Source of the DNA: Octopus vulgaris
Taxonomy: Eukaryota
Length of the DNA: 64,000 nucleotides
Reading direction: 5' to 3'
NCBI GenBank assembly: GCA_951406725.2
Contig: OX597826.1
Span: 21,390,001 to 21,454,000 of the forward strand
Shown here: one piece after another, positions 13,510 to 62,906 of the stretch
How positions within the stretch are numbered: the stretch's first letter is position 1
Layout: each line of letters begins with the position of its first letter
Notes under the pieces: model-generated
The model's input: only the letters and a program-made list of their open reading frames with translations
Database searches by the model: none
What the model was told of the DNA's origin: nothing
Made by a program: the position numbers and the translations under genes

Positions 13510-13678
13510 ATTGTGACCTGTTCACTGACAAAACTCTGTGCTGCAGCATGGAATTTTGTCAGTGAACAGGTTACAGTTTCAAAGCAATGAAAATATTTTG
13601 ACAAATTAAATTTAAATGTTGAAGTGAATCTAACAGTTTTTTGTGTGTTTTTAAATGGCTTATAATCACCTGCAATTG
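13510..13678 (+). mobile_element. short fold-back element (Penelope-like remnant) with hammerhead-like motif
   Basis: Starts with an inverted repeat (13513-13536 vs 13550-13574). Same family as 59316-59610. Flanked by TA and (TG)n(TA)n. Confidence 0.6.
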
Positions 13679-14161
13679 TGTGTGTGTGTGTATATATATA
13701 TATATATATATATATATATATATATATATATATAATCCATCTATCTATATGCCAGTGGCACATAAAAAGCACCATCTAAGTGTTGTCGATGCCAGGTCTG
13801 CCTGATTGGCTCCTGTGTATATATATATATATATATATATATATATCATCATCATCATCATCATTATCGTCGTTTAACGTCCATTTTCCATGCAGGCATG
13901 TGTTGGTCGGTTTGACAGAGGACTGGTGAGCCAGATGGCTGCACCAGGTTCCAATCTGATCTGTCAAAGTTTCTACAGCTGGATGCTCTTCCTAATGCCA
14001 ACCACACCGAGAATGTAGCGGGTGCTTTTTGCGTGCCACCGGCACGAGGGCCAGTCAGCAGGCACTGGCATCATACATGCATGCATACATACATACATAT
14101 AGGATCGTTTGTAGGAAACATAAATCCGGAGAAGCACACTCTAAGATGTAGAGCAGTTTAC

Positions 14162-14271
14162 ATTTTAATGGGGAAGGTCGGTTTATGGGATTACCCTGGG
14201 TTTCCCGTCAATAAAGGTTTATGGACGGGAAACCCAGGGTAATCCCATAAACCGACCTTCCCCATTAAAAT
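14162..14271. repeat. near-perfect 110 bp hairpin/palindrome
   Basis: ATTTTAATGGGGAAGGTCGGTTTATGGGATTACCCTGGGTTTCCCGTC is followed by its exact reverse complement after a 14 nt spacer that is itself partly paired. Confidence 0.95.
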
Positions 14272-15494
14272 ATGTATATACACAAAACAAGCACATCACG
14301 AATATATTGTTAATTCCTAGTAAGGCCTGATGAAGAAAAGTTGTTATCTAAATATTTTCAGAAGTAACCACTCCCTCTTACAAACACAGACACACGTGTT
14401 GTATGTGTGTGAGTTCACAATGACACCACTTGAACAGCGGGAATATTTATGTCTCGCGGCTTAGCGGTTCTGCGTTCGAATTCCTATACAATGCACTACC
14501 TTACTTGGTGCTGGTGTCAAGGGGGCATCTGGCTGTAGAATATAGTCTTTAAAAATCTCGTTCAACCCATGCTAGCATGGAAAAAAAGATGTGATGATGA
14601 TAAAATTGAACAAAGGAAGTATTGAATCGACCCTACTTTAATGTTAACGACAAAAAAGTTATCAATGCCTGTGTGTGCGAGGGGGTGGTGGTGTATTCTT
14701 TTCCTCCACTTAGAGTGGAATATTTAACCGTTCCCGCTTGGATCCAATGAAGACTGTTTAGTTACTATGACAACAGTTATTGGTAAAAACGTTATCAGAA
14801 ATAATCAAATATATAAGTCTATATTAACAGAGACAAATTTATCAGCGTTTGTGTTCGGCCATGTGAAACAAAATAAATTGAAGATAATTCGAAGGAAAAA
14901 GGCGTTTATTTAAAGTAATGCCGAGAAGTGAGAAACACAAACAGTGAGAGTAACAGAGGAAAGAAAGAAAAGAAAAAAAGGAAAAGGTTGGTGAAATAGA
15001 ATCTTTACTATTAGAAATGATACAAAAAGTGGAAATTAATTAAAAACATATGTTTACTAAGACAGTAATTTCTAATACATAAAATATAAATGTGAGTTTA
15101 AAGGACATGTATTATAAGTGAATGTTTAGCTTTTGGCACATTGACAATGAGAGAGAAATAAATAAAACATCGTTACCGTATCTTGTCGTTAAGACAGATG
15201 TCTACAAGAAGTGTCTGTTATGTCATCTCGATGTTGTATCTCTTCATAATTATTTCCTTCATCATCGTCTTCTTGGTGCTTCGCCCCAAAACAGCCTTCA
15301 AATAGAACACCTATCTCAATATTCCGTTTCGTTTTCATACACAATATTTACGACCACATCATTCAATATTTTCTTTTTGTTTAAAAACGACAGGATATGA
15401 TTTGACTGTATTTTCTAGCGGGTCGACCATCTCTGCAGTAGTTCCGTCGTTGATTCATTAATAAAGAAGTAATTAAGAGAAAGTTGTAAATTGC

Positions 15495-15570
15495 CCAATT
15501 AGCTAGATGCGTGCGCATGCGCACTGTGTCTAGAGGCTGCGTGCGTATTACGGCCGGCCGTCTCTTTTGG
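15495..15570 (+). promoter_or_regulatory. probable core promoter of the elongase gene
   Basis: CCAAT at 15495-15499, perfect NRF1/Ewg palindrome TGCGCATGCGCA at 15512-15523, CGGCCGGCCG at 15551-15560, and a pyrimidine initiator-like TCTCTTTT. It sits at the peak of a CpG-rich zone in otherwise CpG-poor DNA. Confidence 0.65.
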
Positions 15571-59315: not shown

Positions 59316-59610
59316 GGAAGGTGTTTATAAGCCTTTTAAAACACACAAAAACTGTTAGATTCACTTCAACATTTAAATTTAATTTGCTAAAATATTTTTG
59401 TTGCTTTGAGACCGCACCCCATGCACAGACTGAACAGGTTGTGGTCTCAAAGCGACGAAAATATTTTGGCAAATTAAATTTAAATGTTGAAGTGAATCTA
59501 ACAGTTATTGTGTGTTTCTTAAATGGCTTATAAACACCTTCCACACTGCAATTGTTTTTGTTCCAGCACACGATCTCAGATCAGGTTACTTGCTATGCAA
59601 GTACATCTCC
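59316..59610 (+). mobile_element. second copy of the 13510 family with ~100 bp inverted arms
   Basis: 59316-59416 is the reverse complement of 59440-59542. Shares GAAAATATTTTG.CAAATTAAATTTAAATGTTGAAGTGAATCTAACAG with 13589-13636. Confidence 0.7.
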
Positions 59611-60936
59611 AGTAAGGGAGTTGGTGAATAAAGAGAAACAAAGAAAGTTTGAAAGGACTCTTTGAAAGCACACCATATCTAGAGCTAATGCTATGTAAAA
59701 ATGCACTTAATACATCCTGTGAAGTGGTTGGTGCTGGGAAGGACATCTAGCAGTAAAAACCGAAAATGAAATGTTTGAGTGAGACATTGTCTTTGATGTA
59801 TCTGAGAGGACAGCAACTCCACAGAAAAACTGACACAGACTGTTGTGATAATCCATCCAACCTGTGTTAGGACAAAAACACTACACATAGAATGGTGATG
59901 GTGAGGATGTGTGTGTTGGTAAAGGGGTTTACAAATGAAGAAAAAGTACTCATTATATGCACACATAATACATGCCCTAACACACATTTATATATGTATG
60001 TTGTAAAAAGCATTTAATACATACATACACACACACATATATACATTTATATATGTTATTTATGTATGTGTGTATATGTACATATATATACATATATGTA
60101 TATGTATGTGTGTATGTATGTATATATATATATATATATATATATATATATATATATATATATATATATATAGAGAGAGAGAGAGAGAGAGAGAGAGAGA
60201 GAGGCGTACATACACAATGATCATTGTCAATAATGATACTGACAATGATGATGATGATGATGATGATGATATATATATGCCTGTATAAGGAAATATGTGA
60301 ATTAATTAAATATTGCCGGAAATTTCTTTGTGTGTGAGTTAAATAGAAATAGTTTGAACAGTTTCATTTGTTATGAAGTTGGTTGTGTTGTAGAGTAATT
60401 ATAAATGACGACCCAACTTGTATTAGTTTGACTTTTTTGACGGTTGTACATGTTTGGTGTAGAAGGCGGAGGAGGAGGAGGAGGGTCTGCTAGAGACTAT
60501 GAGAATGGCAATTTTGCTATTATCAACTGTTTTCACCTCCACTATCATCGTAAACGACATATACAATAGCTGCTGTCAGTTATTTGATTTTTCTTTATTT
60601 TTTTTATTATTGCAGTTGAAAATGAATATAGATTATAGAATCTGATGAAATAACAGAAACACACTTCAGAAAAAAACTGAGCAAAAGCTGGACCAGAACT
60701 TCATTTTTAATTTATATCTAAAATTGACAAATTCTGGTTTGCAGCAGAGACAACGAAAAAAGAAATTTGGTTCTCATCTAAATATTATTATATTTTGTTT
60801 TTGTTTAAAAACATTGTTTCTTCTTCTTGTTCTTCTTCTCACACACCAACTTTTAATTGTCTGACAGGCGCTTCTGTCAGGACTGGTGTTGAATCTAGAA
60901 GACACCTTTCAAGTTGATTGGATTCACTGCTCCAGC

Positions 60937-61002
60937 ATGAAGGTTCATAGTTTGTTCTGTCTGCTGCTGTTCATAGGATGCATAGTTGCAGAAATTATTC
61001 AG
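60937..61002 (+). CDS. probable first coding exon of a secreted or membrane protein (signal peptide); remainder beyond the window
   Basis: AGCATGA start, MKVHSLFCLLLFIGCIVAEIIQ (basic n-region, hydrophobic h-region, I-V-A cleavage-like site), then CAG|GTATGT donor. Acceptor candidates at 60615 and 60867. Confidence 0.55.
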
Positions 61003-62729
61003 GTATGTTCTACAAAAAACTTTTACTTCTTTCTTTTTCCTTTTGGCGAACTTTTTTTTATTTTATTTCTTTCAAAACTTTTAATTAATTTCTCTCTCTC
61101 TCTCTCTCTCTCTTTCTCTCTTTCTCTTTCTCTCTCCAATTCCTTTCTTTAAGTTTTCTTGAAAGTCCGAGTAGGGGTTATATATCTGATGGCTCTGCCA
61201 TTAATAGGAAGAATACCCACCTTTGATAATCTCTAACAGACAAATCAAAATTTTAATAACTTTATTTCAAATATAAAGAAAGAAAAATAACTTAGGATTA
61301 ATTTTTATAAGTTTTTTTTTTGTGTTTTTAGTGAACTTTGTGTTTTAAAGCAAAAAAAAAGAAAATTAATTTCAAGTTTTGTGGCTTTCCCAACTTTTCA
61401 CTGTTTCTCCCAATGAAATTGTGTGATGCAGGAGAGGTACAACCTTGGGATAAACACCATCTCTTCATATTTTGAGTTCAAACCCCACCAAGGTTTACTT
61501 AACCTTTGTTTCTTCAGGAATGACAGAATGCATCCCAAACACCTATTGAAGGTCCAATGAATAGATTGTATTATATGTCTATCATTGTGTGGCCTTGTGG
61601 TGATCTTTTTAACCAATACAATCCAGATAGTTTGAATATTTAATACAGATAGTGGAACATATGTGCCATTTATTGAATATGTTAAATTTCAACTGTCACA
61701 GTTGAAATTCCCTCAGTCTCTTACCATAATTTTACTGATTAATTCTTGAAGGAAATATCTTTGGAATAAGACCAAAATAATACACCAAAATAATTTTTGG
61801 TGTACCTTTATTTTGTTATATCTAAGAAATGCACTCAGAATTAATTCCTTAATGAAAATACTGCACATTCTGTCTAAGGGAATGTCCAAGGCAGACTTAA
61901 CCAAGAAAATAACTCAACTCAATGGTTTATGAGTGTTGTAAAAGTGACAGTGGCAAAAGAATAGCATCATCTTCATCTGACAATATTGGTGGAATTGAAT
62001 TAGCAGAATGAGGATCAGACTGAAACCTTAGGCAGGATTTGGCAACTGCTTTTTATGTTCTGATTTGAAATCTCATCAGGATCAGCTTTGTCCTTTCCCC
62101 TTTCAGGGTCAACAAAAAAACCCCCAGTCAAGTCCTGAAGTTAATGCAATGAACTAGAATCACTTTTATCCTTCTCACCATGGAACAGTATTAGTAATTA
62201 GTATTCAAGACTGTACAAACACACACACACGTATATATGTATGCCATCATCATTATCATCATCATCATTTAATGTTCGTTTTCCATGCTAGCATGGGTTG
62301 GACTTTTTGACCAGGGTCTGGGAAGCCAGGAGGCTGCACCAGGCTCCAGTCTATATATATATATAGTATATATATATATAAGTATATATATATATATATA
62401 GGTTTAGTGATGCAAACAGAAAAATAGAACTCAAAACATGAGTGTATATATATATATATATATATATATATATATATATATACATACATACATACATACA
62501 TATATATATATATATATATATATATATATATATACATACATACATACATACATATATATATATACAGATATATATATCTATCTATCTATCAATATCAATC
62601 AATCTATCTATCTATCTATATATATATATATATATATATATATATATATATATATATATATATATATACATATTTATATACATATATACATATAAATACA
62701 TATATATATATATATATATATATATATAT

Positions 62730-62906
62730 ACCGGAGTAAACACATAAATGTGAAACAAGGTGGAAAAAAAGAGTACTCAAATACCAGTGGTAGAGTAATA
62801 TGCTTTATTTAAAGCAGCAGAAAATTCCACAAAACCTGTTACTCTGAGTTTCGCGAAACTCAGAGTAACAGGTTTTGTAGAATTTTCTGCTGCTTTAAAT
62901 AAAGTA
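62730..62906. mobile_element. (TA)n-associated fold-back element containing a 102-bp loopless palindrome
   Basis: 62803-62904 is self-complementary around TTCGCGAA with one mismatch. A related fragment lies at 34197-34256. Confidence 0.8.

What the first reader, a model, noticed from the sequence alone, without database searches (positions are those of the whole stretch)
13510..62906. Five different short repeat families each carry a minimal type I hammerhead-ribozyme-like motif
Seen: stem I - C(U/C)GANGA-like core - stem II - GAAA - very short self-complementary stem III - NUH - stem I can be parsed at 13555/59430, 40723, 47019/47494, 48671 and, in halves, at 34233/62855. Most of these elements abut (TA)n, and most have an inverted terminal duplication. 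Many departures from pairing are CpG-type transitions. Known: Penelope-like elements and metazoan non-LTR retrozymes carry minimal hammerheads with short palindromic stem III that cleave as dimers, and PLE insertions often show inverted or partial-tandem ends. Inference: this genome holds a diverse, probably under-annotated set of non-autonomous ribozyme-bearing retroelements. No PLE RT/GIY-YIG ORF is visible in this window.
Basis: partly seen in the sequence, partly recalled or inferred. Interest (0 to 1): 0.85.

Follow-up and report, generated by a model that had tools for sequence, protein, structure and literature searches.

The report
Penelope retrotransposon ends carrying variant hammerheads
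The five short repeats are cut-off ends of Penelope-like jumping genes, each with a minimal hammerhead RNA fold predicted to cut itself as a dimer, which is a known arrangement; the fresh details are one family with a naturally swapped core base pair and short copies that stop at a fixed point, likely the element's transcription start.

Summary
The motifs are real, but they show at family level. Most window copies are decayed: Rfam finds no hammerhead and a descriptor scan of the window is near chance. Across 33-70 genomic copies per family, all five families show a minimal type I hammerhead with a palindromic stem III. Sister families give compensatory changes.

Four families (A, B, D, E) run upstream into Penelope-like GIY-YIG ORFs elsewhere in the genome, three of them with RT. 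B matches the Hydra clade. Family C is an ORF-less 475-nt head-to-tail unit (38 of 42 long pieces), like a retrozyme.

Hammerheads in PLE ends are published, including one in an octopus Hydra element. Not found in my literature searches:
(1) Family A has a G3-C8 core (G3 in 69 of 70, C8 in 67 of 70); its sister family has U3-G8.
(2) The 5' ends of short copies hit a wall upstream of the ribozyme (A 15 of 15, D 21 of 24) and almost never fall at the cleavage site (1 of 60). I read the wall as the transcription start.

Cleavage is untested. Verdict: new members of a known kind.

The parts
13513..13671 (+). Family A PLE 3' end: sense copy 13542-13671 with a short inverted partner 13513-13545; (TG)n(TA)n follows
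13555..13605 (+). Family A hammerhead: stem I 13555-13561/13599-13605, core GTGAACA 13562-13568 (G3-C8), stem II 13570-13588, palindromic stem III AATATT 13592-13597, U17 at 13598 (predicted cut 3' of it)
34196..34256 (-). Family E fragment between TA tracts; core CCGATGA at 34239-34233, then an internal deletion removing stem II 3' arm, GAAA and stem III
40265..40826 (+). Family B (Hydra-clade PLE) 3' UTR and pLTR: sense 40417-40826, inverted partner 40265-40414; (TA)n follows
40723..40792 (+). Family B hammerhead: core CTGAAGA 40732-40738, long imperfect stem II (G10.1>C in this copy), palindrome ACTCAGAGT 40773-40781, U17 at 40782
46872..47606 (-). Family C ORF-less head-to-tail array, 475-nt unit, about 1.55 units; (TA)n at its 3' end
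47019..47079 (-). Family C hammerhead 1: core CTGACGA 47073-47067, stem III ATTGG-GA-CCAAT; innermost stem I pair lost by CpG decay
47494..47554 (-). Family C hammerhead 2, core decayed to CTAACAG (47548-47542)
47607..48601 (+). Inverted partner of the family C array (47607-47690 and about 48450-48601), split by an unrelated inverted-repeat element
48598..48804 (+). Family D solo pLTR of about 207 nt, TA on both sides; hammerhead 48671-48704, core CCGACAA 48675-48681 (family core CCGACGA), palindrome ACGT
59316..59615 (+). Family A copy: inverted partner 59316-59415, sense 59431-59553 truncated inside the core, optional tail to 59615
62730..62907 (-). Family E (Hydra-like PLE) 3' end 62730-62855 with inverted partner 62852-62907; junction in stem II, so only the GAAA-palindrome-NUH-stem I half remains, on both strands

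Best explanation
These repeats are short copies of the 3' end (pseudo-LTR) of several Penelope-like retrotransposon families, each carrying a minimal type I hammerhead fold that is predicted to cleave only as a dimer, and most short copies likely arise when reverse transcription starts inside the first pseudo-LTR of the transcript and runs off at its start.

Shown: families A, B, D and E are continuous with GIY-YIG ORFs elsewhere in the genome (A, B, D also with RT). C is an ORF-less 475-nt tandem unit. 3' ends are fixed 44-109 nt downstream of the predicted cut in A, B, D and E, with an optional tail; in B the tail is the 5' UTR leading into the ORF. In A, D and E the 5' ends pile up upstream of the ribozyme, not at the cut.

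Inferred: the element protein nicks TA-rich DNA and primes at an internal site downstream of the hammerhead, on uncleaved RNA (as shown in vitro for an anole PLE). Priming on the upstream pLTR gives fixed-length solo pLTRs ending at the transcription start. Priming on the downstream pLTR gives longer, ORF-bearing copies. A template switch or fold-back gives the inverted partners.

Inferred: two hammerheads pair through their palindromic stem III and cleave slowly, probably with protein help, to process tandem transcripts. Family C is mobilised in trans by a PLE protein. Inserted copies then decay neutrally, so few window copies would still cleave.
For: Family-level motif: G5, A6, A9, G12, A13, A14 and A15.1 are each held by at least 90% of copies in all five families (n = 70, 48, 33, 53, 68).

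Scan of 743 kb of fetched loci with positions 3 and 8 left free: 257 hits, 212 with a Watson-Crick 3-8 pair, against 7 and 16 hits (1 and 4 paired) in two shuffles. The loci were chosen for these families, but families met by accident in the flanks also fit, among them U3-A8 cores.

Covariation: C with sister C' has 97% of cells paired and compensatory pairs in stems I, II and III, against 24-45% for slid controls. A with sister A' has 91% paired; the 3-8 pair is G-C in 11 and U-G in 9 of 21, and one stem III pair is A-U or G-C.

ORF links: B, full pLTR-ORF-pLTR at L152; A, RT + GIY-YIG (Pfam E 9e-5) + UTR + hammerhead in L295; D, RT and GIY-YIG in L289 and L292, continuity through L229/L196 and two more paired hits; E, endonuclease C-terminus through a 1.3-kb UTR in L164.

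5' ends, queries from the 3' end only: A, 15 of 15 copies passing -53 stop by -65; D, 21 of 24 passing -100 stop by -112; 1 of 60 starts at the cut. D long and short copies share two polymorphic sites.

Literature: internal RT initiation on uncleaved RNA and partial rescue by C3G/G8C (PMC11167929); internal promoter in the pLTR (PMC2377424).
Against: No cleavage or RNA-end data. Rfam and in-window scans are negative or near chance. Monomer folding gives weak z-scores (-0.1 to -2.6), and the window copy of B prefers a fold in which the core pairs with stem III. The compensatory changes come from only two family pairs, each change one event; the counts of pairs changed on both sides did not beat shuffles (31/500 and 368/500). 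D and E carry C4, and A, B and D carry U17, which are expected to lower activity. E stem II is only 2-3 bp and its 11.1 position varies. Samples are the best 40 matches to a query, not random. A has alleles seen only in short copies (+2 G in 20 of 66 short against 0 of 26 long), which also fits short self-propagating masters. B shows no sharp wall (-53 to -107). No RT was recovered for E. Every ORF copy that I inspected was broken or partial.
Confidence: 0.78

Rival explanations
1. The short forms of A, D and E are true non-autonomous SINE-like families. A few truncated masters with an internal promoter are copied again and again by PLE proteins, and the 5' wall is simply the master's own end.
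For: Fixed length of most copies. Alleles confined to short A copies. Family C shows that ORF-less units do propagate here. Non-autonomous PLE derivatives are described (bioRxiv 10.64898/2026.07.22.740005; PMC8557442).
Against: 5' ends scatter over 10-15 nt and are not one point. D long and short copies share both alleles at +14 and +83. Many short copies lack the tail and downstream sequence that the anole PLE needed as template. The two readings can both hold.
Confidence: 0.3
2. The folds are hammerhead-derived but no longer cleave. They are kept as a protein-binding or promoter element, so non-canonical cores (G3-C8, C4, U17) are tolerated.
For: Only 1 of 60 copies begins at the cut, and 1 of 176 within 2 nt in a second, less clean count. 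Hammerhead mutants did not affect insertion in vitro (PMC11167929). Metazoan minimal hammerheads cleave poorly (PMC4209133).
Against: The 3-8 pair is kept as C-G, G-C, U-A or U-G across families, and G12 and the NUH are kept throughout. This is what catalysis would select for.
Confidence: 0.15
3. The motifs are chance parses in AT-rich inverted repeats.
For: In-window scans are near chance and Rfam is negative. The 59430 parse is partly a junction artefact.
Against: Family-wide conservation, covariation and position at PLE 3' ends.
Confidence: 0.02

Closest known systems
Minimal type I hammerheads in pseudo-LTRs of metazoan Penelope-like elements (Cervera and de la Pena 2014, PMC4209133)
   Same: Short stem I, extra base after A9 in A and D, palindromic stem III, many single truncated copies and few within full elements, opposite-strand pairs, 3-8 covariation (U3-A8 reported there).
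   Different: Family A has G3-C8 and its sister U3-G8. D and E have C4. E has an A-U (or mismatched) 10.1-11.1 pair and C a G-U. None is tested for cleavage.
Hydra-clade PLEs, including Hydra-1_Obim (Craig et al. 2021, PMC8557442)
   Same: Family B ORF has RWK, DKT, CxCx5C, CxxC and CxH motifs, no CCHH, (TA)n insertion and a 3' hammerhead. By eye it resembles the Hydra-1_Obim protein printed.
   Different: A different family: its hammerhead differs from the one listed for Hydra-1_Obim. Here the pLTR and tail are seen (L152), whereas that entry says 'no pLTR'.
Neptune/Nematis-type PLEs
   Same: [quoted passage not shown]
   Different: Clade not fixed by a tree. The 3' UTRs are long (1-2.5 kb) and rich in microsatellites.
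Non-LTR retrozymes of animals (PMC7229834; bioRxiv 10.64898/2026.07.22.740005)
   Same: Families C and C' are ORF-less head-to-tail units of about 475 nt with one type I hammerhead per unit.
   Different: Arrays seen are short (mostly under two units) and show PLE insertion marks (two 3' ends, inverted partners, TA targets). Circular RNA is not shown.
Anole Poseidon element PAc in vitro (Frangieh et al. 2024, PMC11167929)
   Same: Fixed 3' ends plus an optional tail downstream of the hammerhead; inserted copies come from uncleaved RNA.
   Different: In the two of four parts that I read there is no account of a fixed 5' wall of short genomic copies. Its G3-C8 is an engineered mutant.

Membership tests
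Penelope-like elements (C-terminal EN+) | RT ORF upstream of the repeat | tested here: met
   A (L295, L301), B (L152), D (L289): RT motifs by sequence; Pfam RVT_1 only weak (D, E 0.02) or absent. Not recovered for E; absent for C.
Penelope-like elements (C-terminal EN+) | C-terminal GIY-YIG endonuclease | tested here: met
   A Pfam PF01541 above cut-off (E 9e-5); B E 0.011 and D E 0.007, below cut-off; E by 36% identity to B over 73 aa. Absent for C.
Penelope-like elements (C-terminal EN+) | Pseudo-LTR / partial tandem with optional tail | tested here: met
   L152: the same pLTR on both sides of the ORF, tail = 5' UTR; tails in A, B, C.
Penelope-like elements (C-terminal EN+) | Inverted 5'-truncated partner copy | tested here: met
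   A 22 of 30, E 25 of 30, but D 0 of 30.
Penelope-like elements (C-terminal EN+) | RT phylogeny with PLE reference clades | not tested
Hydra clade (family B) | RWK, DKT, CxCx5C linker, CxxC and CxH, no CCHH, (TA)n targets | tested here: met
   Motifs read in L152 ORF pieces against the definition in PMC8557442 section 11.
Minimal type I hammerhead | Core G5, A6, A9, G12, A13, A14, A15.1-U16.1, H17, with a 3-8 pair | tested here: met
   column counts; the 3-8 pair is C-G in B, C, D, E and G-C in A.
Minimal type I hammerhead | Canonical C3-U4-G5-A6-N7-G8-A9 core | tested here: not met
   Met by C and most B copies only; A is G3-C8, D and E are C4.
Minimal type I hammerhead | Stems I and II, palindromic stem III, with covariation | tested here: met
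   self-duplex of the stem III segment computed for A, B, D, E. Covariation tested for A/A' and C/C' only.
Minimal type I hammerhead | Self-cleavage at NUH (as dimer) | not testable with these tools
   Needs an in vitro assay.
Rfam hammerhead models | Covariance-model match | tested here: not met
   No hammerhead family among 97 matches at E<=10 in the window; better-preserved copies were not scanned.
Non-LTR retrozyme (family C) | ORF-less tandem unit with a type I hammerhead | tested here: met
   38 of 42 long C/C' pieces run head-to-tail into the previous unit, 4 are truncated within the unit, none enters an ORF; only the best 40 of about 1,500-1,750 candidates per query were scored.
Non-LTR retrozyme (family C) | Two consecutive intact hammerheads | tested here: inconclusive
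   The window array has one near-intact and one dead core; other arrays were not scored for this.
Non-LTR retrozyme (family C) | Expression as monomeric linear and circular RNA | not testable with these tools
   Only contigs of runs guessed to be RNA were available.

The most novel reading that the evidence does not exclude
The fixed 5' wall of short copies is a genomic record of the PLE transcription start. Because PLE reverse transcription starts internally, priming on the first pLTR of a transcript yields SINE-like solo pLTRs with a whole, uncut hammerhead. Start site, ribozyme and RT start could then be mapped from DNA alone, and many 'SINEs' in such genomes would be PLE by-products. In addition, family A is a high-copy natural G3-C8 hammerhead whose sister family has U3-G8, a natural test of core tolerance.
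Probability: 0.45. Interest if true: 0.55.

Novelty: new member of a known kind. Interest (0 to 1): 0.35.

Why it matters
The role of the hammerhead in Penelope-like elements is still open. This genome offers many families with natural core variants (C3-G8, G3-C8, U3-A8, U3-G8, C4) and young copies (up to 97-99% identical) for direct assays. If the 5' wall marks the transcription start, it explains why PLE fragments look like SINEs and gives a simple prediction for 5' RACE. It would also affect repeat annotation, since standard hammerhead descriptors and Rfam miss these window copies. The basic finding, hammerheads at PLE ends, is known.

Tried and rejected
- Rfam scan of the window: no hammerhead.
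- Strict descriptor in the window: chance level.
- A plus-strand parse of family C near 46980 (GAAACTAGTC) was considered; it is not conserved across copies. The real motif is on the minus strand.
- PLE ORFs next to family A in L071 and next to family C in L096, L120, L268, L322 and L333 were examined. They belong to other families inserted nearby or into the same TA tract, not to A or C.
- The tblastn hit of the A endonuclease frame to window 22184 comes from a SINE-derived part of that frame.
- Pile-up of 5' ends at the cleavage site: not found. The -111/-117 cluster for C is a reference artefact.
- A 3'-only query for family E returned nothing, not even itself. E 5' ends come loci, whose query reached about -18.
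- Expression: no RNA holder listed. Contigs of four runs cover family C but cannot show ends, strand or level; no conclusion drawn.
- Monomer folding was uninformative.
- Lunse et al. 2017 was not held.
- Earlier scan findings: none for this genome. Eight listed from other genomes did not bear on this one.
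Full report
SETTING. The window is G000:C13:21390001-21454000, in a 2.8-Gb animal genome. The likeness of one ORF to a published Octopus element suggests an octopus; this is inferred, not looked up. I call the families A (13555, 59430), B (40723), C (47019, 47494, minus strand), D (48671) and E (34233, 62855, minus strand).

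OBSERVATION. In the window alone the signal is weak. Rfam lists no hammerhead among 97 matches at E<=10. A strict descriptor finds 0 sites, and a loose one 20 against 8-21 in 15 shuffles. A scan tolerant of core variants finds 4 against 0-2 in 10 shuffles. The reason is decay: 13555 and 40723 are nearly whole, 47019 has lost its innermost stem I pair, 48671 has G8>A, 47494 has a dead core, 59430 is truncated inside the core, and the two E sites are halves. Each family has hundreds to thousands of first-look candidates in G000 (2628, 4180, 1424, 1729, 271), of which the best 40 were scored and 30 fetched per query.

FAMILY-LEVEL MOTIF. I counted all distinct copies in the fetched loci that span the motif at 80% identity or more:
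- A, n=70: core GTGAACA in 64, palindrome AATATT.
- B, n=48: CTGAAGA 26 and CCGAAGA 16, palindrome ACTCAGAGT.
- C, n=33: CTGA(C/G/T)GA in 25, stem III ATTGG-GA-CCAAT.
- D, n=53: CCGACGA 35, palindrome ACGT.
- E, n=68: CCGA(T/C)GA in 50, palindrome ACTCAGAGT.
All have a stem I, a stem II and an allowed NUH. Samples lean toward the window copy's own mutations. In 743 kb of loci, with positions 3 and 8 free, the scan gave 257 hits, 212 with a Watson-Crick 3-8 pair, against 7 and 16 hits in two shuffles (overlapping loci not removed). The flanks held further families met by accident, including U3-A8 cores.

COVARIATION. Two sister families were fetched. C with C' (30 rows picked by a motif pattern) has 97.1% of cells paired, with two-sided changes in stems I, II and III; slid controls give 24-45%. 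A with A' (21 of 25 rows found; four inverted partners left out) has 91.4% paired, and the 3-8 pair is G-C in 11, U-G in 9 and unpaired in 1. A' has T3 and G8 in 15 of 15 copies. Each change is one evolutionary event, and the count of changed pairs did not beat shuffles (31/500, 368/500), so this is supporting evidence, not a formal test.

PARENT ELEMENTS. B: L152 holds pLTR-ORF-pLTR with two frameshifts and a long inverted partner. The optional tail of short copies is the 5' UTR leading to the start codon. Its RWK, DKT, CxCx5C, CxxC and CxH motifs fit the Hydra clade as defined in PMC8557442. E: a related endonuclease C-terminus lies 1.3 kb upstream in L164, with its last 28 aa also in L165 and L260; no RT was recovered. 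A: L295 has RT, a Cx3CxxC linker, GIY-YIG (Pfam E 9e-5), UTR and hammerhead in order; 4 of 20 such loci reach the hammerhead within the fetched 1.5 kb. D: the endonuclease C-terminus precedes a long CA-rich UTR in L229/L196, two more loci show both pieces about 2 kb apart, and RT and a Cx4CxxC linker lie upstream in L289 and L292. C and C': 38 of 42 pieces spanning the unit's middle and hammerhead run head-to-tail into the previous 475-nt unit, 4 are truncated, none enters an ORF. One of the three queries favoured such copies, and only the top hits were seen. No PLE ORF is in the window.

ENDS. 3' ends are fixed: A +89, B +44, D +103, E +109 from the predicted cut. To sample 5' ends without bias I searched with 3'-only queries. 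In A, 15 of 30 copies stop between +6 and -51, and all 15 others between -55 and -65. In D, 6 of 30 stop before -100, 21 between -101 and -112, and 3 by -125. A constant stopping rate would give about 1.6 and 0.6 stops in those zones (the zones were chosen after seeing the data, each set includes the window copy, and some A rows are partners at one site). E, from a less clean sample, has 28 of 30 between -16 and -57. B shows no sharp wall. One of 60 copies starts at the cut. The walls in A and D fall on TCA-containing, initiator-like sequence (my reading, using a recalled consensus). Inverted partners: A 22 of 30, E 25 of 30, D 0 of 30.

MECHANISM. Frangieh et al. show that a PLE primes reverse transcription inside its RNA, downstream of the hammerhead, on uncleaved template. 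They also show that the ribozyme needs the protein and that C3G/G8C partly rescues it. Schostak et al. place an internal promoter in the pLTR. Together these predict that priming on the first pLTR of a transcript runs off at the transcription start and gives fixed-length solo pLTRs with a whole ribozyme, which is what A, D and E show. This step is inferred. The rival, short self-propagating masters, has some support from alleles confined to short A copies; shared D polymorphisms favour my reading. Dimer cleavage is predicted from the palindromes and from PMC4209133. C4 and U17 suggest low activity; U4C is reported as weak but tolerated, and the U17 point is recalled.

WHAT IS KNOWN. Minimal hammerheads in PLE pLTRs, including many single truncated copies and U3-A8, are published (PMC4209133). 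A hammerhead is listed for Hydra-1_Obim (PMC8557442 File S2). Retrozymes as PLE derivatives are argued in a 2026 preprint. A 2026 Octopus repeat annotation counts PLE families and never mentions ribozymes in its main text. A natural G3-C8 core was not found in searches, which returned engineered cases only. The most relevant paper, Lunse et al. 2017, was not held and may list one. A fixed 5' wall was not found in one search or in the passages read.

WHAT I READ. PMC4209133 parts 1-2 of 4; PMC11167929 parts 1-2 of 4; bioRxiv 10.64898/2026.07.22.740005 parts 1-2 of 5 (supplements closed); PMC13282606 part 1 of 3 and passages; PMC8557442 passages, section 11 and supplement hits; passages only of PMC3088659, PMC6765202, PMC10085705, PMC3884650, PMC7229834, PMC2377424 and PMC3846280.

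VERDICT. Real and well supported, a new set of members of a known kind, with two modest leads (the G3-C8 family and the 5' wall). Interest 0.35.

Noticed in passing
G000:C16: Long copies of family A concentrate on contig C16 (58.8 Mb, about 2% of the genome): 14 of 42 rows and 20 of 40 places, against 2 of 40 and 0 of 40 for short-copy queries. One query came from a C16 copy. It may be a local burst or a sex chromosome (recalled idea, untested).
   Followed up: no
L151:4000-5700 (-), L160: Another PLE family (RT, Cx4CxxC linker, GIY-YIG) whose hammerhead has a U3-A8 core and a 2-bp stem II.
   Followed up: partly
L015 oriented 2860-2910; L066 oriented 1645-1690: A relative of family D with a core varied at position 6 (CTGT-GA), 4-bp stem II and ACGT palindrome.
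   Followed up: no
L007, L096, L149, L150, L166, L171, L173, L184, L187, L188, L217 flanks: About ten further hammerhead families with different palindromic stem III sequences, met by accident; hammerhead-bearing PLE ends look very dense in this genome.
   Followed up: partly
window 47706-48410: Element with 260-nt inverted arms (91%) and internal (TAACCC)n runs, inserted in the inverted partner of family C; MITE-like.
   Followed up: no
window 63145-63942 (-) and about 12420-12659 (+): Fragments of ordinary LINE ORFs: an RT C-terminus (RTE-like by recall) and an AP-endonuclease start; no Pfam support.
   Followed up: no
families A' and C, stem III: The palindromes have a central GA, which in a dimer would give tandem G-A mismatches instead of Watson-Crick pairs.
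   Followed up: no
L268, L322, L333, L071: Unrelated PLE families sit in or next to the TA tract that follows another PLE's 3' end, so nested PLE clusters can mimic a parent-child link.
   Followed up: partly
window 42584-42813, 51895-52125, 56063-56242: Minisatellites with 18-, 21- and 12-nt units.
   Followed up: no
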